Below are positions 9,566 to 40,802 of a stretch of DNA of 64,000 nucleotides, piece after piece (position 1 is the stretch's first letter; every line of letters starts with the position of its first letter). The notes beneath the pieces were generated by a model. That model searched no databases. It was not told the origin of the DNA and was given only the letters and a program-made list of their open reading frames with translations. The stretch lies in assembly GCA_963790305.1 (NCBI GenBank), contig CAWBOC010000005.1, positions 96,001-160,000 of the forward strand, written 5' to 3'. A program made the translations under genes and the position numbers. The stretch is from an uncultured Gemmatimonadaceae bacterium. GTDB lineage: Bacteria; Gemmatimonadota; Gemmatimonadetes; Gemmatimonadales; Gemmatimonadaceae.

Positions 9566-12457
9566 ATGCACGCGTCCCGCTGCGCCGCGCTCCTGCTCGC
9601 GGCCGTTCTCGTCGCCCCAATCGGTGCACAGCAAGCGCACGACGCCGAGTACACGGCGAAGATTCGAGAGCTTACGCCGACCGACGTGAAGTGGAAGTTC
9701 ACCACCGAGCTCGTCGACCACCTCCCGGCATCGGCGACGGTACCGTCCCCACTCAAGGTCCTCGGCTACGTTCCCGGCACTCCCGGGCGTCTGTCATACG
9801 TCGCCGACATCAATCGCTACTTCCGTGCACTCGACGCGGCGTCGCCTCGCGTGTCGCTCGTCTCACTCGGCACGAGCGACGAAGGGCGCGAGATGCTCCT
9901 CGCGGTCATCGCCGACGAGGCGACCATGTCGCGCCTCGAGGAGTATCGGACGATGCTCGGTCGCATCGCGGATCCCCGCGGCCTGACGGCGGAGGAGAAG
10001 ACGCGCCTGCTCGGCAGCGCGAAGCCCATCTACTGGCTCACCGGATCGATCCACTCTCCGGAGATCGGCAGTCCGGAGATGCTGATGGAGCTCGCGTATC
10101 GGCTGGCCGTCGACGAGTCGGAGTTCGTGAAGACGATCCGTTCCGGCGTCATCACCCTGATCACACCGGTGACGGAGGTCGACGGACGCGACCGCATGGT
10201 GGACGTCAACAAGCTCACGCGGCAGCTCAAGCTCGGGCCGCAGGGCGTGTCGCTCATCTACTGGGGGAAGTACACCGCACACGACAACAACCGTGACGGC
10301 ATGGTGCTCTCCCAGAAGCTCACGCAGAACGTGATGAAAGGATTCCTGCACTGGAAGCCGGTCGTTTTTCACGATCTGCACGAGTCGGTGCCGTTCCTGT
10401 ACACGAGCACTGGCACCGGTCCGTACAACGACGAGTTCGACCCGATCGTGATTCAGGAATGGCACACCCTGGCGTACCAGGAGATCACCGAGCTCACGCG
10501 GCGCGGGCTACCCGGCGTGTGGACACACGGCTTCTACGACGGGTGGGCGCCTAACTACATGCTGGCGATCGGCAACCTCCACAACAGCATCGGTCGTTTC
10601 TACGAGACGTACACATCGACCGGCACCGATTGTCAGACGGTGAAGCTTCCGGCGACGCAGACGGAGCGCCGCTGGGACCGCCCGAACCCGCCCGTGAACG
10701 GCGTGAAGTGGTGCATGCGCAGCAACATCAACTACCAGCAGTCGGGTGTGATGATCGCGCTCAAGTACGTCGCCGACCACTCGCGCACCTTCCTCGACAA
10801 CTATCTCGCGAAAGCCGATCGGATGGTGCGGAAGGGGCAGACGTCGGCACCGTACGCGTTCGTGATTCCGCGCGACCAGCGTCGCGTCGCGGAAGCGGCC
10901 GATCTCGTGAATCTGTTCCGGGCCCACGGGGCGGAAGTGCACGTCGCCGACGGAGACTTCGAGATCAAGGGGGCAGGAGTCAGGAGTCAGGGATCAGGGG
11001 GGGCCGGGGCACGAGGGGATAGCGCAGGTGCTGCGCGCCCCGTGTCACCTGACTCCGCAACGCGCCCCCTGGTTCCTGACTCCCGACCCCTGACCCCTAC
11101 GACAGTCAAACGCGGCGACTGGATCGTGCGCCTGGATCAGCCGTATACGGCGACCGTCCGTACGCTGCTCGCCGTCCAGAAGTACAAGGCCGACGATCCG
11201 CCGCCGTACGACGACACCGGCTGGACCCTCGACGAGCTGCGGCACGTCGTGACGTACAAGATCAGCGACTCGACCGTCCTCGCGAAACCGATGACCTTGA
11301 TGACGGCCGACGCCAAGGTCGAAGGAAGCCTGTCCGGAGACGGTGGTGTCGTGCTCGTCGAGCACCTGGGCGACTGGCGCTCGGCGGTGCTTCCCTGGAA
11401 GGTGGGAGGAACGCGCGTGCGTGCAGCCGAGGTGGCGTTTACCGCGGCAGGGCGCACGTGGCCGGCGGGCACGTACCTCGTTCCCGCCGACGGGCGCGCG
11501 CGCACCGCGGTCCGTGACCTCGGCCTAACGGCTGTCGCGGTCGCCAGCGCACCCACCGTTCGTACGCACGACGTCAAGCCGCCACGCGTGGCGCTCGTGC
11601 ACTCCTGGCTCGAGACGCAGAACGAAGGGTGGGTGCGCTACGCCTTCGACCAGCTCGGTGTGCCCTATACGTACATCTCTGATCAGTCTCTCGCGGCATC
11701 CGGCCGTCTCGACGCCTTCGATGTCCTGGTCTTCCCGCACGTGAATGGCTCGGCGCAGGCGCTGATCAACGGTCGCCCAATGACAGGGCCGCCGATTCCG
11801 TGGAAGAAGACGGCGCTCACGCCGAACCTCGACAAGTGGGACACGACCGACGACATCCGCCGTGGCATGGGGCTGGACGGAGCGGCAGCGTTGCGACGCT
11901 TCGTGGAGCGCGGCGGCGTTCTCATCACGACCGGCAATACGTCGCGTCTTCCGATCACGTTAGGCTTCAATCCGACGGTCAGTGAAGCGGAGGCCCGAAC
12001 GCTGCGTGCTCGCGGCGCGATCTTCCGTGCGAAGGGCGACACGACGGGAAGTCCCATTCTGTACGGCTACGAGCGCTCGACGTTCCCGGTGTATTTCAAC
12101 CAATCGCCCCTCCTCTCGGTGCAGCCGCCCGACACGACTGGACGTCTCGATGCGGTCGATCCTGCCATCATCGCCGACATCGAGCGCCAGCGCGGACGCA
12201 TCGTGCTGCGATTCCACGACAAGGCCGATTCATTGCTCGTGTCCGGACTGCTCGTGAACGGTGGTGAGATGACGGGCAAGGCGGCGGTGGTCGATGCACC
12301 GGTCGGACGGGGTCATGTCGTGCTCTTCGGCATCCGTCCAATGTGGCGTTGGCAGTCCCAGGGCACGTTCGCGATGCTGCTGAATGCAATGGTGCACTGG
12401 GATCATCTGGGCACGATCACAAGGGTAGAGAAGCCAACGGTGGCGGCAGGGCAATGA
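9566..12457 (+). CDS. Secreted M14-family zinc carboxypeptidase-like protein
   Basis: Signal peptide; GSIHSPE (HxxE), DNNRD and HDLHE; C-terminal GATase-like region. Confidence 0.85.
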   Translation: MHASRCAALLLAAVLVAPIGAQQAHDAEYTAKIRELTPTDVKWKFTTELVDHLPASATVPSPLKVLGYVPGTPGRLSYVADINRYFRALDAASPRVSLVSLGTSDEGREMLLAVIADEATMSRLEEYRTMLGRIADPRGLTAEEKTRLLGSAKPIYWLTGSIHSPEIGSPEMLMELAYRLAVDESEFVKTIRSGVITLITPVTEVDGRDRMVDVNKLTRQLKLGPQGVSLIYWGKYTAHDNNRDGMVLSQKLTQNVMKGFLHWKPVVFHDLHESVPFLYTSTGTGPYNDEFDPIVIQEWHTLAYQEITELTRRGLPGVWTHGFYDGWAPNYMLAIGNLHNSIGRFYETYTSTGTDCQTVKLPATQTERRWDRPNPPVNGVKWCMRSNINYQQSGVMIALKYVADHSRTFLDNYLAKADRMVRKGQTSAPYAFVIPRDQRRVAEAADLVNLFRAHGAEVHVADGDFEIKGAGVRSQGSGGAGARGDSAGAARPVSPDSATRPLVPDSRPLTPTTVKRGDWIVRLDQPYTATVRTLLAVQKYKADDPPPYDDTGWTLDELRHVVTYKISDSTVLAKPMTLMTADAKVEGSLSGDGGVVLVEHLGDWRSAVLPWKVGGTRVRAAEVAFTAAGRTWPAGTYLVPADGRARTAVRDLGLTAVAVASAPTVRTHDVKPPRVALVHSWLETQNEGWVRYAFDQLGVPYTYISDQSLAASGRLDAFDVLVFPHVNGSAQALINGRPMTGPPIPWKKTALTPNLDKWDTTDDIRRGMGLDGAAALRRFVERGGVLITTGNTSRLPITLGFNPTVSEAEARTLRARGAIFRAKGDTTGSPILYGYERSTFPVYFNQSPLLSVQPPDTTGRLDAVDPAIIADIERQRGRIVLRFHDKADSLLVSGLLVNGGEMTGKAAVVDAPVGRGHVVLFGIRPMWRWQSQGTFAMLLNAMVHWDHLGTITRVEKPTVAAGQ
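10972..11098. repeat. Family C palindromic element located in-frame inside the M14 peptidase
   Basis: CAGGAGTCAGGAGTCAGGGATCAGGGG ... CCTGACTCC...TCCTGACTCCCGACCCCTGACCCCT, translating as GAGVRSQGSGG...VPDSRPLTP. Confidence 0.8.
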
Positions 12458-14964: not shown

Positions 14965-15067
14965 GGTTTCTTCGTCCGAAGGTGTTCAGCTTCGAGCTGC
15001 CGGGACCACGGGGCTCCAACTTCCGGACCCCTGACCACTAGCTCCTCGGTCTCTTATCGTATCAAAC

Positions 15068-27930: not shown

Positions 27931-28599
27931 ATGTCGCCTGTGACCATCGTTCTCGCTCTCGTGCTGCTCATCGGCACCGCGTTGCATGGCGTCGGTGCGC
28001 TCCTGCACCCGATGCTTGCCGGTGACGGCGCCACACAACTTCGCACGATCGCCGACATGGCGCACTGGCGAGAGCTCCACCTGGTCATGCTCGCCGGCAG
28101 CGGCCTCATCGTCGCGGGCGTGTGGGTTCGGCTGGTGGGAGATCGCGCGTTCGTTCGTCCCCCGCTCGTCGCCGCCCTCGCGGTGATCTCCATCGGGGTG
28201 ACCATCAACGCGCTCAACATCGCGTACATGACGGGCGCCGGGTGGCACATGGCCTCGCAATTTGCCGCGGGCGATGCCTCCATGGTGCCGCTGTTCGACG
28301 CGACCCATCCCATCGGCCTCATGGCCGCCCGCTTCGGCAACTTCATCGTCGCGCTTGGTGCCCTCGTGCTCGGCTGGGCGGAATGGCACGACGCCGAGCC
28401 GCGCCGTGTCGATGCGGTACTGGCGTGGATCGCGGGGGTGGGCGGTCTGGTTGGCGCGATCTTCTTCCTGGAGTCGAGCCGTATCGCGCTCGCCGCGGTC
28501 GCCCTGCTCTCGGCTTGGCAGGTCGTCACCGCGCTCAGGGCCCTTACCTTGTCGGTGAGGGGGTCGCGCCGTACGATCACCGAGGATACCAGGAGTTAG
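27931..28599 (+). CDS. Multi-pass membrane protein, probable paralogue of 7699..8415
   Basis: About 6 TM helices; LHP...HWRELHLVMLAG. Confidence 0.75.
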   Translation: MSPVTIVLALVLLIGTALHGVGALLHPMLAGDGATQLRTIADMAHWRELHLVMLAGSGLIVAGVWVRLVGDRAFVRPPLVAALAVISIGVTINALNIAYMTGAGWHMASQFAAGDASMVPLFDATHPIGLMAARFGNFIVALGALVLGWAEWHDAEPRRVDAVLAWIAGVGGLVGAIFFLESSRIALAAVALLSAWQVVTALRALTLSVRGSRRTITEDTRS

Positions 28600-28688
28600 G
28601 AGTCAGGAGTCGGGAATCAGGGGAACAGCGCTGCGCCGCAGGCGTGCGTATCTGACAACTGACACCTGACGTCTGATCCCTGACGTCT
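28591..28688. repeat. Palindromic element, family C-like (GGAGTCA left arm, CTGAC-type right arm)
   Basis: AGGAGTTAGGAGTCAGGAGTCGGGAATCAGGG ... CTGACAACTGACACCTGACGTCTGATCCCTGACGTCT. Confidence 0.7.
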
Positions 28689-31773: not shown

Positions 31774-33101
31774 GGGGCTTTAGATTGCGGATTGCGGATT
31801 GCGGATGGTCGGCAATCGTAGTGCTCGCGAGCGTTGCATCCGCCCAGACACCGATCCGCAATCAGCAATCCGCAATCGTCGTGATCCAGAATGCGACGAT
31901 TGTGCCCGTGACGGGCCCCCGCATTCAGAACGGGAGCATCGTTCTCCGCGGTGGGCGCATTGAAGCCGTCGGGCCGAACGTCGCAGCGCCCGGCGACGCG
32001 CGCGTCATCGACGGCACCGGGCTCTTCGTCTACCCGGGCATGATCGACGGCGGTACGCAGCTCGGGCTCACCGAGATCAGCTCCGTGCCAGGCGGCGAAG
32101 ACACCGAGGAGATCGGCGACTTCAACCCGCATAACGTCGCCCTGACGGCGGTGAACCCGCATTCGGAGCTCATTCCCGTCACGCGGGTCAACGGCGTGAC
32201 GACGGCCATTACCGCCGCCGAGGGTGGGCTGATCAGCGGGCAGGCAGGGCTCATCGACCTCATGGGATGGACGCCGGCCGAGATGGCCGTTCGGCGGCAG
32301 GCGGCGATGGTGGTGAGCTATCCCTCGTTGGGTGGTGGTGGGTTCGGCGGCGGGGGCGGAGGCGGGGGCCAGCAGCGGCCCGAGTCAGAGCGTCGCGAGG
32401 AGCTCGACCGGCGGACGCGCTCGCTGCGCAGCTACTTCGCCGATGCCAAGGCATACACCGAGATGAAGGGACGCGTGGCGAGCGGGGGCGGCGTTCGCAA
32501 GGTGAACCAGGCGATGGAGGCGATGACGCCGATCATGCGCGGGGAGATGCCGATCATTTTCGACGTCACGACTGTCGATCAGATTCGCGGCGTGCTGGCC
32601 CTCGCCGACACCTTCGGCATCAAGGTCGTGCTGCGCGGCGCCCGCGAGGCATGGCGCCTGGCTGACACGCTGGCCATGCGGAAGATCCCGGTGATCGTCG
32701 GTCCGTTGACCACCGTCCCCGGCGCCGATGATCCATACGACATGACATACGCGAACCCCGGTGTGCTCGCGCGCGCCGGAGTGAAGATCGCGTTTCAGAC
32801 ATCCGACGCCGCCAACTCGCGCAACCTCCCCTACAACGCGGCATTGGCTGTCGCCTACGGCCTGGACGCGGACGCTGCCTTACGGGCGCTGACGATCAAT
32901 GCCGCCGAGATCTTCGGAGTGGCCGATCGGTATGGAAGTCTGGCGCCGGGGAAGGTGGCGAACGTCGTGGTGACCAGCGGCGACCCAATGGACGTGCGCA
33001 GCGTCGTCCGCCACCTCTTCATTCGCGGGCAGCCGGTGCCGCTGGATGATCGGCATACGAGGTTGTACGAGCAGTTTAGAGCGAGGCCGCGAACGCCGTA
33101 G
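31770..33101 (+). CDS. Amidohydrolase-fold protein lacking the HxH ligands
   Basis: PGMIDGGTQLG; RVNGVTT; GSLAPGKVANVVV. Confidence 0.85.
   Translation: MRGFRLRIADCGWSAIVVLASVASAQTPIRNQQSAIVVIQNATIVPVTGPRIQNGSIVLRGGRIEAVGPNVAAPGDARVIDGTGLFVYPGMIDGGTQLGLTEISSVPGGEDTEEIGDFNPHNVALTAVNPHSELIPVTRVNGVTTAITAAEGGLISGQAGLIDLMGWTPAEMAVRRQAAMVVSYPSLGGGGFGGGGGGGGQQRPESERREELDRRTRSLRSYFADAKAYTEMKGRVASGGGVRKVNQAMEAMTPIMRGEMPIIFDVTTVDQIRGVLALADTFGIKVVLRGAREAWRLADTLAMRKIPVIVGPLTTVPGADDPYDMTYANPGVLARAGVKIAFQTSDAANSRNLPYNAALAVAYGLDADAALRALTINAAEIFGVADRYGSLAPGKVANVVVTSGDPMDVRSVVRHLFIRGQPVPLDDRHTRLYEQFRARPRTP
31783..31876. repeat. Family A element embedded in the signal-peptide region of 31770..33101
   Basis: GATTGCGGATTGCGGATTGCGGAT (LRIADCG) ... 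ATCCGCAATCAGCAATCCGCAATC (IRNQQSAI). Confidence 0.8.
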
Positions 33102-33228
33102 GGGTCAGGGGTCAGGAGTCAGGGGTCAGGGGGGGTCAGGGTGAAGGTTTCAGGAGAACGCGCGCGCCGCACTCCTGGAACCTCGACCCTGACGCCCCTG
33201 ACCCCTGACTCCTGACTCCTGACCCCTA
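33099..33228. repeat. Palindromic element, family C (GGGGTCA/GGAGTCA units)
   Basis: TAGGGGTCAGGGGTCAGGAGTCAGGGGTCAGG ... CCTGACCCCTGACTCCTGACTCCTGACCCCTA. Both ends supply the TAG stops of convergent genes. Confidence 0.9.
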
Positions 33229-33510
33229 GCTGACGATCCCTTCCCCGCCGTTCTCCAGCTCCTCGCCGCCGTGCCGCCGCCGAATGTGCTCCATGAGCGA
33301 CCGCCGTCGCATGGACTTGCGCAGCTCTGCGGCAATGTGTGCACGCCGCGCCGCATCGAGCAGGCGATCGCTCAAGCGCTCCATCTCCCCCGTCGATTCG
33401 TCGGCAACGTTGCGGACGTCACACAGCTCTTCGATGCTCCGGTTCAGGTCCGACTGCACCTGATCGAGCATCGAACGCGACGGATCACGCGGCTTCCCTC
33501 GAAAGGCCAT
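33226..33510 (-). CDS. Small helical hypothetical protein
   Basis: Strong AAAGGAGG RBS before ATG 33510; 94 aa, charged and helical. Confidence 0.65.
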   Translation of the reverse strand: MAFRGKPRDPSRSMLDQVQSDLNRSIEELCDVRNVADESTGEMERLSDRLLDAARRAHIAAELRKSMRRRSLMEHIRRRHGGEELENGGEGIVS

Positions 33511-38973: not shown

Positions 38974-39851
38974 GACGTGTCGTGTGTCTCGGTGTCGCTG
39001 GTCTCGCGGCGCTCATGCCGCTCACCGAGGCGCTGGCGCAAGGCCAACCCACCCAGGAGCCGTTGCCGGAGCAGACTCTCCGCGATCTCTCCGGGCGCGA
39101 CCGCGTCGCGCATCTCGCCATCAACGGCGCCCTCGGCGGATTCAGCTCGGCGATGTTCGCGCTGGCCCGCGGAAAGAATCCTTGGCGCGCAGCACTCGTG
39201 GGGTTCGGCGGTGGCGTCGCACTGGGCGTGGGCAAGCAGGTCGCCGGCAAGCGCTTCGACGGTGCCGGTCTCCTCGGCCGACAGCTCGCGTCAGTTGGCA
39301 CTTCCTTCGTGCGCAGCGCGTCCGAAGACACGATGGTCGTCATCGTACCCGTGGGGCCGATGACGTTCGAAATCCGGCCCAGCGCCGTGGATCGCGTGCG
39401 GCCGCGCGTGAATCTCGTCGCCACGACGGCGCTGCTGTACTACGTCATCCGTGATGATACCCGTATCGATGTGGGCGCCACTTTTTCCGCTGGCGCCCCG
39501 GTGTTTCGCTTTCCGACGGAGACGGTGTCGACACGCGACGGCATCATCTTCGGGCGAATGGATTTCGGAACGATCGTCCTCGGAGCGCAGCCATCCATCC
39601 TCGATGCACAACGACGCATGACGCTGCCCCACGAGTCGATTCACATCGTGCAGTACGACTTCCTGGAGCAGGCACTCTCCCTGCCGCCGGAGCGCGCCAT
39701 CCTGCGAAAGCTGGGCGTGGGCGAAGGCTTTCTGCGCCATGTCGACCTCGGGGTTATCTCCCTGATGCTCGCGGGTGTGCTGCAGATGCACATGGACTAC
39801 GACGACCGCCCGTGGGAGCGGGAGGCGGTGATCCTGACTGAAGGGCGGTAG
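38970..39851 (+). CDS. Exported or membrane hypothetical protein
   Basis: Signal peptide, Gly-rich hydrophobic segments, HESIH (HExxH) and PWEREA; ATGA-coupled to the kinase. Confidence 0.7.
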   Translation: MRRVVCLGVAGLAALMPLTEALAQGQPTQEPLPEQTLRDLSGRDRVAHLAINGALGGFSSAMFALARGKNPWRAALVGFGGGVALGVGKQVAGKRFDGAGLLGRQLASVGTSFVRSASEDTMVVIVPVGPMTFEIRPSAVDRVRPRVNLVATTALLYYVIRDDTRIDVGATFSAGAPVFRFPTETVSTRDGIIFGRMDFGTIVLGAQPSILDAQRRMTLPHESIHIVQYDFLEQALSLPPERAILRKLGVGEGFLRHVDLGVISLMLAGVLQMHMDYDDRPWEREAVILTEGR

Positions 39852-39857
39852 AGCCTC

Positions 39858-39986
39858 GGGGTCAGGAGTCAGGAATCAGGGATCAGGGGGTGTCAGGGTA
39901 AAGGTTCAAGGAGAACGGCTCGAGCGACTCCTGAAACCTCTTCCCTGACACCCCCTGATTCCTGACATCCTGACTCCTGACCCCTA
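39858..39986. repeat. Palindromic element, family C; core homologous to 33099-33228
   Basis: Shared core GTCAGGGT(G/A)AAGGTT..AGGAGAACG...ACTCCTG(G/A)AACCTC..CCCTGAC. Confidence 0.9.
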
Positions 39987-40802
39987 GCGTCCCCGCATAA
40001 CGAGCGGCCGCGTCGCCCAGCCGGATTCCCCCTCGGGCACCACCACCACGCCCAGCAGCCATCGGTCGATCCGATTGTCCGGATGCGTGTGGTGATACTT
40101 CACCACCTTGATGCCGGCGAACGTTCCGATCAGCCCGCCAATGAGCACGTCGCTCGCCCAATGCTTGTTGTCGTACATCCGCGACAGCGCGATGAGCCCC
40201 GCGCCACCGTACATGACCGGCGCGATGTACCACACCGATTGCGGCCACCAGCGGCGCGTTTCGTCCACCACGGCCGCGGCCGCGGCGAATCCGATCAGCG
40301 AATGGCCCGACGGGAAAGAGCGGTACTGCTCCTGGTTCCATCCGCGCATGAAGCCGAAGTTGTGCGGCTTGTCGATGTCGACGTAGGGTCGCTGTCGGCC
40401 CGCGGTGATCTTGATCAGGTTCGTCACCAGCAGACCGGCGATGATCGCCTCGGTACCGTGCAACCCCAGGTCGGCCATGCGCTCATTGTCCGCCAGCCTG
40501 CCGATTCCGTAGAGCGCGCCGCCGATGAGGTAAGCTCCCGGTTGCGCGATGGTCTCGACGACCCGCGACACCCGACGAAAGAACCGATTGGTCTGCGGCG
40601 CGCCTTGCAGGTAATCGGCGAATCGCTTGTCGAGCGGCGCAATGGCCACCGTCGCGAAGATGACGCCGCCGGCAAAAAGCGCGTCCTCCGCCGTGAACAG
40701 CGGCTCTTGCGACGTCTTGAGACTGTCCTCCGACGGTTGCGCGAGCACACGCGCGGGAAACAGGAGCGCAGCACAGAGCGCGAGCGTCGTTGAGAGGCGC
40801 AT
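39984..40802 (-). CDS. PAP2-family phosphatase
   Basis: KITAGRQRP, SFPSGH and SRMYDNKHWASDV. Confidence 0.93.
   Translation of the reverse strand: MRLSTTLALCAALLFPARVLAQPSEDSLKTSQEPLFTAEDALFAGGVIFATVAIAPLDKRFADYLQGAPQTNRFFRRVSRVVETIAQPGAYLIGGALYGIGRLADNERMADLGLHGTEAIIAGLLVTNLIKITAGRQRPYVDIDKPHNFGFMRGWNQEQYRSFPSGHSLIGFAAAAAVVDETRRWWPQSVWYIAPVMYGGAGLIALSRMYDNKHWASDVLIGGLIGTFAGIKVVKYHHTHPDNRIDRWLLGVVVVPEGESGWATRPLVMRGR

What the first reader, a model, noticed from the sequence alone, without database searches (positions are those of the whole stretch)
10972..11098. Intergenic-type palindromic repeat located in-frame inside a peptidase
Seen: family C arms, the same units as at 33099 and 39858, lie in the middle of the 963-aa M14 peptidase ORF without breaking frame. 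They add about 42 low-complexity residues between VHVADGDFEIK and TVKRGDWIVRLDQPY. Known: Rickettsia palindromic elements insert into coding sequences in this way. Inference: the elements are mobile or expandable and generate new protein loops.
Basis: partly seen in the sequence, partly recalled or inferred. Interest (0 to 1): 0.7.

Follow-up and report, generated by a model that had tools for sequence, protein, structure and literature searches.

The report
Palindromic repeat read as protein loop
A copy of a hairpin-forming DNA repeat that normally sits just behind genes lies in frame inside a peptidase gene of a soil Gemmatimonadaceae bacterium and is read as a floppy 43-residue surface loop, as happens in Rickettsia; here the copy is old and inherited.

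Summary
Observation confirmed. Window 10968-11098 holds two 37-nt inverted arms, 84% complementary and 57 nt apart. They lie in frame in the 963-aa M14-like ORF 9566-12457.

A profile built from 48 other copies matches the segment at E 7e-20. The genome has 103 such loci, and 69 of the 94 long ones carry stops in all six frames. The peptidase copy is open only in the frame used. It reads CGA where 44 of 48 copies read TGA, and AAG where 21 of 48 read TAG.

The same element, with the same two changes, sits at the same site in five congeners. It is missing in the one congener that lacks the family, and in other genera. It is therefore inherited, not a recent jump.

The site is the tip of a beta-hairpin: 4 residues in basal relatives, up to 133 elsewhere. 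The model is disordered there. The insert evolves almost freely (dN/dS 0.44-0.85, against 0.05 for the rest of the gene), but its arms change more slowly than synonymous sites.

Two other lineages carry their own genome's heptamer palindromes in this same loop.

Verdict: an RPE-like case from an undescribed repeat family. How the arms got there is unresolved. The scan's earlier notes held nothing on it.

The parts
9566..12457 (+). ORF of 963 aa. It is an exported M14-like zinc peptidase with an N-terminal signal-like stretch, and it hosts the repeat.
   Evidence: ORF. (PF00246, E 3e-11). H163, E166, H269, H272 and E347 are invariant in 60 orthologues; dN/dS is 0.05 outside the insert.
10967..10969 (+). 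Codon AAG (Lys468) at the position where the family's left end reads TAG.
   Evidence: TAG in 21 of 48 family copies and AAG in 6 of 48. AAG in all five orthologues that keep the left arm.
10968..11004 (+). Left arm. It is the G-rich heptamer array (GGRGTCA)n, read as GAGVRSQGSGG.
   Evidence: pair I1. (nhmmer alignment with high posterior probability); p-distance to orthologues is 0.08-0.24.
11005..11061 (+). Centre of 57 nt with its own inner stem, read as AGARGDSAGAARPVSPDSAT. Whether it came from the element or from the older loop is unresolved.
   Evidence: fold; no match to other copies beyond 15 nt; p-distance 0.31-0.50, apart from 0.16 between the closest pair G004-G008, with indels; no significant similarity to the centres of L080 and L084.
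11062..11098 (+). Right arm. It is the C-rich heptamer array (YCCTGAC)n, read as RPLVPDSRPLTP.
   Evidence: p-distance 0.14-0.30.
11084..11086 (+). Codon CGA (Arg507) at the position where the family reads TGA in this frame.
   Evidence: TGA in 44 of 48 copies. CGA in G004, G005 and G008, and CCA in G001.
33098..33234 (.). Canonical intergenic copy of the same family (short subtype).
   Evidence: E 3.4e-36.
39850..39991 (.). Canonical intergenic copy of the same family (short subtype).
   Evidence: E 1.9e-39.
28585..28684 (.). Degenerate intergenic copy of the family.
   Evidence: E 9e-08.

Best explanation
Window 10968-11098 is a genuine copy of the genome's heptamer-armed palindromic repeat. 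The genome holds about 100 copies, and most lie directly behind stop codons. This copy came to lie in the tip of a beta-hairpin of an exported M14-like peptidase in an ancestor of the genus.

It survived because the site tolerates almost any disordered sequence, and because this copy lacks the family's two usual in-frame stops: it reads AAG where the family's left end usually reads TAG, and CGA where the right arm reads TGA. Since then it has been inherited vertically and translated as a 43-residue low-complexity loop. The loop evolves nearly neutrally at the protein level, and in some species it has decayed or been partly deleted.

Shown:
- membership of the family;
- the reading frame;
- the loss of the two stops;
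- shared ancestry within the genus;
- relaxed constraint on the insert;
- loop position, from the alignment and a predicted model.

Inferred:
- that the event was an insertion of a whole element, not assembly in place;
- that the peptide is made;
- that the slow change of the arms reflects DNA-level forces (hairpin selection, slippage, or gene conversion with the roughly 100 other copies) and not protein function.

The confidence given is for the shown core: a family copy, in frame, inherited within the genus, tolerated as a disordered loop. For the specific route, insertion of a whole element, I give about 0.55.
For: Family membership:
- E 7.2e-20 against a profile of 48 other copies, covering both arms at the family's usual overall length.
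- 103 loci in the 4.3-Mb genome.

Stops:
- 69 of 94 loci of 100 nt or more have stops in all six frames. The peptidase copy is open in one frame only, the one used.
- CGA against TGA in 44 of 48 copies, and AAG against TAG in 21 of 48.

Inheritance:
- Orthologous inserts score 62, 53, 50, 34 and 15 bits in G004, G005, G008, G001 and G002, with the same AAG and CGA.
- G003 keeps CCGCCTGCCTCG where G001 has the arm-derived ACTCCTGCCTCC, and L075 keeps AAGGAGTC. Both therefore look like deletion remnants.
- G003 pairs with G001 in the tree, with SH-aLRT 88.

Family distribution: found in 7 of 8 genomes of the genus and 0 of 16 genomes of other genera of the same family.

Loop position:
- 25 of 26 orthologues from outside the Gemmatimonadota have a minimal turn.
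- Loop lengths run from 4 to 133 aa in 40 full-length Gemmatimonadota orthologues.
- In the domain model (mean pLDDT 80.6) the strands are at residues 465-472 and 510-514, with pLDDT below 50 at 475-503.

Constraint:
- dN/dS is 0.44-0.85 over 34-43 insert codons, against 0.05-0.13 over 920 other codons.
- The DNA hairpin is strong only in G000: z -4.6, against -0.4 to -2.2 in four congeners and +0.7 in G002.
Against: - No empty site with a target duplication was found, so transposition itself is not shown.
- The arms abut the two beta-strands exactly. No older loop residues are left outside them, which a simple insertion into a 20-60-residue loop would not predict.
- The centre carries Asp-Ser motifs like those in arm-less loops of other genera. 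L094, for example, has ARGDSA. The centre could therefore be the older loop and not element sequence.
- In IleRS the same heptamers occupy a loop of unchanged length: 18 aa in 8 of 9 genus members, with or without heptamers. That looks like replacement in place, not insertion.
- The arms diverge 2-5 times more slowly than synonymous sites of the same gene, so the insert is not simply decaying.
- No evidence of translation. Public contigs break at the repeat.
- The tree is the quick one; the careful search did not finish.
Confidence: 0.8

Rival explanations
1. An old palindrome with rewritten arms. A hairpin-forming element has sat in this loop since before the genus split from the L080/L084 lineage. 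Its arms are repeatedly overwritten to match whichever heptamer family dominates the genome, by ectopic gene conversion, slippage or template switching. The centre is inherited.
For: - The peptidase loops of two other lineages carry inverted heptamer arrays of their own genome's family.
- L080: arms of 29 nt, 79% complementary, 58 nt apart (57 nt in G000), built of GGGGAGC/GCTCCCC. That array occurs 105+135 times in its genome G042, against 1+4 for the control.
- L084: CTCGGCCCTCGGC/GCCGAGGGCCGAG, 13 nt and 100% complementary. The array occurs 63+82 times in G041, against 1+1.
- L080 and L084 are sisters, yet their arms differ.
- In all three lineages the arms span the loop from strand to strand and flank an Asp-Ser-rich centre.
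- The arms change more slowly than synonymous sites.
- The IleRS loop has the same length with and without heptamers.
Against: - The three centres are not significantly alike as DNA (local alignment against 1000 shuffles: p 0.08, 0.86, 0.08).
- At orthologous intergenic sites, where species differ in arm type the centre differs too. That is whole-element turnover, not arm-only change.
- Old and new arms share no homology on which conversion could start.
- Loops of sister clades such as L082, L085 and L087 show no palindrome (z -0.2 to -1.1).
Confidence: 0.22
2. Assembly in place. A single G-rich heptamer array arose or expanded in the loop by slippage or short templated insertion. The second arm was then copied from it in inverted orientation by fold-back (quasi-palindrome) template switching around the resident loop sequence.
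For: - Single G-rich arms exist in two other genes of this genome: IleRS and a maltokinase-like gene, where G000 and G005 have about 9 residues more than G004 and G008.
- L086 carries a lone (CGCAACC)n array in the same peptidase loop.
- G042 has lone arrays next to unrelated hairpins.
- Heptanucleotide tandem repeats are reported as the commonest long simple repeats in many prokaryotes and as prone to slippage (passages of PMC4679880).
- The arms lie exactly at the base of the loop.
Against: - Both arms match the family consensus, not merely each other.
- The spacing and total length equal those of ordinary copies.
- The left end sits where the family's TAG sits.
- No intermediate with one arm only is seen among the peptidase orthologues of the genus, other than forms that look like deletions.
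Confidence: 0.12
3. Recent transposition into the gene in this genome: the copy is young and mobile.
For: The G000 copy is the best preserved. It scores 72.5 bits and has a hairpin z of -4.6.
Against: - The same site, the same AAG and the same CGA are seen in five other species whose synonymous divergence from G000 is 0.56-0.80.
- The profile was built from G000 copies, so it favours G000.
Confidence: 0.02
4. The loop peptide has been recruited for a function, such as an adhesive or regulatory loop, and is kept by selection on the protein.
For: - The frame has stayed open in six species.
- All indels are multiples of three.
- The left-arm peptide GSGVRSQGSG is fairly constant (alignment).
- dN/dS is below 1 (0.44-0.85).
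Against: - dN/dS is about ten times higher than in the rest of the gene.
- The segment is shortened or lost in G002, G003 and L075 without loss of the gene.
- The arms are also conserved at orthologous intergenic sites, where no protein is made.
- An open frame is required anyway for the downstream 450 residues.
Confidence: 0.06

Closest known systems
Rickettsia palindromic elements (RPE). Ogata et al. 2000 and 2002, seen only as cited in passages of PMC10969869 and PMC3733652; the 2002 paper is not held.
   Same: - A dispersed palindromic repeat of about 100-150 bp lies in frame inside a gene that stays functional.
- It adds a peptide segment at a place the fold tolerates.
- It is shared by related species.
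   Different: - A different phylum (Gemmatimonadota), and no sequence relation was tested.
- The arms are tandem heptamers.
- The canonical copy carries stops, so it is not built to be read through.
- Only 1 full and 2 half copies of 103 loci are in genes. The review says nearly half of the RPEs lie in ORFs.
- Most copies sit behind stop codons.
Intragenic REPs (GTAG- and CGTC-tagged palindromes), Di Nocera et al. 2013, PMC3733652. Abstract and passages seen.
   Same: - Extragenic hairpin repeats lying mostly downstream of ORFs, with a minority inside genes in flexible loops.
- tRNA synthetase genes are among the hosts.
- In Xanthomonas recB, different REPs lie at about the same site in two species. 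That resembles the three lineages with different palindromes in this one peptidase loop.
   Different: - REP units are 20-40 bp with a GTAG or CGTC tag and are often linked to RAYT transposases.
- Here the unit is 125-145 bp.
- The base triplet before the first G is GTA in only 6 of 84 copies and CTA in 25 of 84.
- No Y1 transposase domain was found in the 94%-complete genome.
MITEs that make in-frame fusions (intragenic ERIC, BOX, Correia). Review PMC10969869, passages seen.
   Same: - Terminal inverted repeats and no coding capacity of their own.
- About 100 copies per genome.
- Occasional in-frame intragenic copies.
   Different: - No target-site duplication, empty site or parent insertion sequence is shown here.
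- The arms are arrays of a 7-nt unit whose number varies.
- Related species carry other 7-nt units at the same sites.
Heptanucleotide tandem repeats of prokaryotes (TAACTGA repeats of Beggiatoaceae and cyanobacteria), PMC4679880. Abstract and passages seen.
   Same: - Lineage-specific 7-nt units in short tandem arrays, mostly intergenic and next to gene ends.
- They can be translated only in the orientation that lacks stops.
   Different: - Those are direct repeats, mostly upstream of start codons; only one inverted pair is reported.
- Here the arrays come as inverted pairs that form long hairpins behind stop codons.

Membership tests
Rickettsia palindromic elements (RPE) | Dispersed palindromic repeat of roughly 100-150 bp | tested here: met
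   103 loci, most of them 120-170 nt, each with inverted arms.
Rickettsia palindromic elements (RPE) | Copy inserted in frame in a gene that remains under purifying selection | tested here: met
   One open frame, the one used. dN/dS is 0.05 outside the insert.
Rickettsia palindromic elements (RPE) | A large share of copies lies inside ORFs and encodes a conserved peptide | tested here: not met
   1 full and 2 single-arm copies of 103 loci are in genes. 69 of 94 loci have stops in all six frames.
Rickettsia palindromic elements (RPE) | Sequence relation to RPE-1 to RPE-10 | not tested
   No RPE sequence was at hand. Rfam gave only sub-threshold hairpin matches.
REP / REPIN | Short (20-40 bp) palindromic unit with a GTAG or CGTC tag | tested here: not met
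   The unit is 125-145 nt. GTA precedes the first G in 6 of 84 copies, CTA in 25 of 84.
REP / REPIN | A RAYT (Y1 transposase) in the genome | tested here: not met
   PF01797 was not found in G000, which is 94% complete. The same search rings in 6 of 14 control genomes.
REP / REPIN | Location downstream of ORFs | tested here: met
   With a crude gene finder that covers 42% of the genome, the stop codon of an upstream same-strand gene lies 0-15 nt from the element in 29 of 32 cases, and touches it in 13.
MITE | Terminal inverted repeats | tested here: met
   Arms of about 40 nt.
MITE | Target-site duplication and empty sites in relatives | tested here: inconclusive
   TA precedes the left end in 40 of 84 copies, but my detection of the right end was faulty. 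G003 has short or empty sequence at several sites, but the flanks are too diverged to read a duplication.
MITE | A parent insertion sequence with the same ends | not tested
   Only the Y1 transposase family was searched.
Peptidase M14 (the host gene) | Match to the family model, and zinc-binding and catalytic residues | tested here: met
   PF00246 at 43.9 bits against a cut-off of 21.6, N-terminal part only. H163, E166, H269/H272 and E347 are invariant in 60 orthologues. Assigning these to zinc and catalysis is from my recall of carboxypeptidase A.

The most novel reading that the evidence does not exclude
Gemmatimonadaceae genomes each maintain their own family of foldback elements, whose arms are arrays of a lineage-specific 7-nt unit. 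Some genome-wide process keeps rewriting those arms at fixed sites, including inside protein-coding loops. The process could be frequent ectopic conversion or an unrecognised enzyme that writes heptamer arrays beside hairpins. As a result, part of a protein's sequence follows the genome's selfish-repeat fashion and not its own descent: the same peptidase loop spells GVRSQGS...PDSRPLTP in one genus, and other repeat-derived peptides in two other lineages.
Probability: 0.2. Interest if true: 0.75.

Novelty: new member of a known kind. Interest (0 to 1): 0.5.

Why it matters
This shows, outside Rickettsia and the proteobacterial REPs, that a non-coding hairpin repeat can be carried for a long time inside an active enzyme gene.

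It also gives a simple rule for when that is possible in this family. The G-rich arm has no stop in any frame, and all three arms or half-elements found in genes are read in that sense. The C-rich arm puts TGA in frame every 21 nt, so a whole element needs at least one change.

For annotators: low-complexity loops in these genomes can be repeat-derived, and short-read assemblies break at them.

The wider pattern would be the more interesting lead if it holds. It consists of species-specific heptamer palindromes at the same intergenic sites, and in the same protein loop in three lineages. It offers a natural system for asking how dispersed palindromes are homogenised.

Tried and rejected
- **Full-length structure.** The 963-aa job on alignment A1 had not finished. 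I used a 251-residue domain model instead.
- **Foldseek.** The domain model had no PDB match at E 0.001 or better.
- **Sequence search of solved structures.** 0 hits at E 0.01 or better.
- **Rfam.** Only sub-threshold matches to microRNA hairpin models, none near its gathering score.
- **Public sequencing runs.** 24 runs listed; the best holds 0.29 of the sampled words. Contigs of 4 runs were laid. None bridges the repeat: pieces stop at 10962 or cover only the arm at 10968-11009. The one RNA run shows only short pieces. Nothing follows for presence, absence or expression.
- **Earlier notes of the scan.** Nothing relevant.
- **Centre of the element.** blastn-short of the 57-nt centre against the genome gave only the self hit and chance 12-17-nt matches. 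Similarity of the centres of G000, L080 and L084 was not significant.
- **Presence/absence polymorphism of full elements.** I compared 3 sites of the window and 5 informative sites out of 8 on two other contigs. All were occupied in every congener examined except G003, so no clean empty site and no target duplication.
- **Crude gene finder.** It covers only 42% of the genome and its right-end detection failed. I use only the left-end figures.
- **Literature.** Searches for such repeats in Gemmatimonadetes (6 papers, titles and abstract starts seen, none relevant) and for heptanucleotide inverted repeats (12 of 876 listed) gave no description of this family.
- **Restriction or methylation sites in the heptamers (GANTC, GATC, GGCC).** Considered as the reason for the units, then dropped. 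The sites are not common to all the units seen.
Full report
**What is there**

The window is G000:C5:96001-160000 of a 4.31-Mb, 13-contig, 66% G+C assembly. Titles of public records that carry orthologues place it in the Gemmatimonadaceae.

ORF 9566-12457 (+) encodes 963 aa. It has a signal-like N-terminus and a Peptidase_M14 match (PF00246, E 3e-11).

Inside it, 10968-11004 and 11062-11098 are inverted arms of 37 nt, 84% complementary and 57 nt apart. The arms are arrays of the 7-nt unit GGRGTCA and its complement. The same units make up the intergenic palindromes at 33098-33234 and 39850-39991. The two-unit motif occurs 18 times in the window, against 0.17 expected.

**The family**

A regular-expression scan found 102 clusters in the genome, 70 of them with both arms. 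They fall into two subtypes:
- a short one of about 125 nt with one inner stem (48 copies);
- a long one of about 140 nt with two G+C-rich inner stems around CTCATCTGATGAG (22 copies).

Profiles of the two subtypes find 103 loci.

The peptidase copy was not used to build the profiles. It scores 72.5 bits (E 7e-20) over model positions 10-150 of 156.

Canonical ends read TAGGGGTCAGG...CCTGACCCCTA. With a crude gene finder, the stop codon of an upstream same-strand gene touches the element in 13 of 32 cases and lies within 15 nt in 29.

No Y1/RAYT transposase domain was found, and no Rfam family reaches its threshold.

**Why this copy can be read**

(GGAGTCA)n has no stop in any frame. Its complement puts TGA in frame once every three units.

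Accordingly, 69 of 94 loci of 100 nt or more have stops in all six frames. Of the rest, 17 are open in one frame, 7 in two and 1 in three. The peptidase copy is open in exactly one frame, the one used.

When the 48 short-subtype copies are aligned to it, codon 11084-11086 is CGA where 44 of 48 copies have TGA. Codon 10967-10969 is AAG where 21 of 48 have TAG.

**Other coding copies**

Of the 103 loci, 10 have some frame open for 50 or more codons on both sides. Only three of these lie in recognisable genes with coding-like composition:
- the peptidase, with a whole element;
- isoleucyl-tRNA synthetase, with one G-rich arm, read PNNQESGVRSQGAGG, just before KMSKS;
- a maltokinase-like gene, with one G-rich arm, read RGQESGVRGRG.

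A scan of all long, coding-like frames for peptides spelled by the arms found the same three. It also gave six chance 5-mers.

**History at the peptidase site**

Orthologues were found in 38 of 41 related genomes, and the more distant ones align in two pieces that break at residues 472/513.

Of 15 orthologous loop segments, 6 match the family profile. All 6 are from the same genus:

| Genome | Bits |
|---|---|
| G000 | 72.5 |
| G004 | 62 |
| G005 | 53 |
| G008 | 50 |
| G001 | 34 |
| G002 | 15 |

G003 and 8 segments from other genera do not match. One of those 8, L007, is from G015, which is marked unpublished; nothing rests on it.

All five congeners that keep the left arm have AAG. G004, G005 and G008 have CGA, and G001 has CCA.

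The family itself was found in 7 of 8 genomes of the genus (not in G003, which is 98% complete). It was found in 0 of 16 genomes of other genera of the same family. Weak matches appear in 7 of 16 genomes of two other families.

G003 and L075 keep short strings that match arm remnants. In the quick maximum-likelihood tree G003 pairs with the element-bearing G001 (SH-aLRT 88), and the genus clade has 100 (the careful search did not finish).

I therefore read one gain before the genus radiated, followed by decay and deletions.

**The site**

Of 76 loci from public genomes, 72 could be read across the loop.
- Among orthologues from outside the Gemmatimonadota, 25 of 26 have a minimal turn such as ...ETKEGKF....
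- Among 40 full-length Gemmatimonadota rows, the stretch between fixed anchors is 4 aa in 4, 11 aa in 4, 22-64 aa in 29 and 122-133 aa in 3.

A domain model was built from a 57-sequence alignment of residues 400-650 (mean pLDDT 80.6, pTM 0.73). It puts strands at residues 465-472 and 510-514, with pLDDT below 50 at 475-503.

So the repeat fills the tip of a beta-hairpin that is a long-standing hot spot for low-complexity sequence. It did not create the loop.

**Constraint**

By the Nei-Gojobori method, dN/dS of the insert against G004, G008, G005 and G001 is 0.51, 0.74, 0.44 and 0.85 (34-43 codons). For the other 920 codons it is 0.055, 0.052, 0.048 and 0.128.

The insert is not uniform:

| Part | p-distance between species |
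|---|---|
| Left arm | 0.08-0.24 |
| Right arm | 0.14-0.30 |
| Centre | 0.31-0.50, with indels |

The exception for the centre is 0.16 between the closest pair, G004 and G008. The gene's synonymous p-distance from G000 is 0.40-0.49.

The arms thus change more slowly than neutral sites, and the centre about as fast. Hairpin stability is exceptional only in G000 (z -4.6 against 100 dinucleotide shuffles). The five congeners that keep the element lie between -2.2 and +0.7.

**The complication**

Three things sit badly with a plain insertion.
1. The arms abut the two strands, with no older loop residues outside them.
2. The centre carries Asp-Ser motifs like those in arm-less loops of many other genera. 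The codons differ, however: 27 of 44 Asp-Ser pairs in those loops use AGY for Ser, against 2 of 14 in this genus.
3. In IleRS the loop is 18 aa in 8 of 9 genus members, whether or not it is spelled with heptamers. In the maltokinase-like gene, by contrast, G000 and G005 have about 9 residues more than G004 and G008.

More striking is what two other lineages show. Of 36 loops scored, the only other one with a strong hairpin signal is L084 (z -4.3).
- L084's loop holds inverted CTCGGCC-type arrays (13 nt, 100% complementary). Its sister L080 holds GGGGAGC/GCTCCCC arrays (29 nt, 79% complementary, 58 nt apart).
- Each array type is a dispersed family in its own genome: 63+82 hits against 1+1 for the control in G041, and 105+135 against 1+4 in G042. 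They often occur there as inverted pairs.
- L086 has a lone (CGCAACC)n array in the same loop.

At orthologous intergenic sites, the congeners likewise carry palindromes with different 7-nt units: GGAGTCA, GGGGCCA, GGCGCTA, GGGATCA and GGGTCGA. Usually the centres differ too. G003 has short hairpins or nothing there.

So either this loop and these sites are hit again and again, or the arms are rewritten in place. The centres of G000, L080 and L084 are not significantly alike (p 0.08, 0.86, 0.08), so I cannot decide between the two.

**Comparison with what is known**

In-frame palindromic repeats are known:
- RPEs of Rickettsia;
- intragenic REPs in several species, including in tRNA synthetase genes, with different REPs at about the same site of recB in two Xanthomonas species;
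- intragenic ERIC and BOX elements.

These come from passages of PMC10969869 and PMC3733652. Heptanucleotide tandem repeats are a common class of bacterial simple repeats (passages of PMC4679880).

Two searches found no description of this family (listings only).

I file it as a new member of a known kind. It works like an RPE, but it fails the RPE trait of frequent coding copies. It also fails the REP traits of a short tagged unit and a RAYT.

**Limits**

- Translation is not shown.
- Public contigs break at the repeat.
- The full-length fold did not finish.
- The tree is the quick one.
- All relatives are metagenome-assembled genomes.
- Supplements of the cited papers were not opened. Additional file 3 of PMC3733652, which lists intragenic REPs, might hold closer parallels.

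Noticed in passing
G000:C9:61000-66500 (locus L146), minus strand: The isoleucyl-tRNA synthetase gene is split over three overlapping frames: ORFs of 271, 604 and 571 aa, with an open frame of 640 aa against about 980-1400 in relatives. These are either indel errors in the assembly or a broken gene. The breaks are not at the heptamer arm.
   Followed up: partly
Orthologous intergenic sites of window 28585, 33098 and 39850, and G000:C5:853304, 855363, 861192 and 865940 (loci L021-L069): Species of the genus carry palindromes built from different 7-nt units (GGAGTCA, GGGGCCA, GGCGCTA, GGGATCA/GGGTCGA) at the same intergenic positions, with both arms changed together. G003 has short hairpins or almost nothing there.
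   Followed up: partly
G000:C5:861192-861347 compared with G004 (L061): The centre of the long subtype, with its two unlike inner hairpins, is in opposite orientation in the two species at the same site. That is what recombination between the inverted arms would produce.
   Followed up: no
L028 (G003), the site orthologous to window 39850-39991: G003 has an unrelated palindrome of about 300 nt at this site, so it has its own repeat families.
   Followed up: no
Peptidase loops of L113, L115 and L117: Loops of 122-133 residues, rich in GRGG repeats, at the same hairpin tip. They show no palindromic signal (z about 0).
   Followed up: no
Peptidase loops of other genera: Asp-Ser pairs recur in the loop, as in RPDSAARRDS. 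There they are mostly encoded GAC AGC (22 of 44), although 166 of 201 Asp-Ser pairs elsewhere in the same genes use TCN for Ser. In L080, L084 and L086 the units GCNGAYTCNGC are themselves small palindromes.
   Followed up: partly
window 15023-15035: A lone C-rich arm fragment (CCGGACCCCTGAC), followed by CTAG, lies between two genes. It is probably a remnant of a family copy.
   Followed up: no
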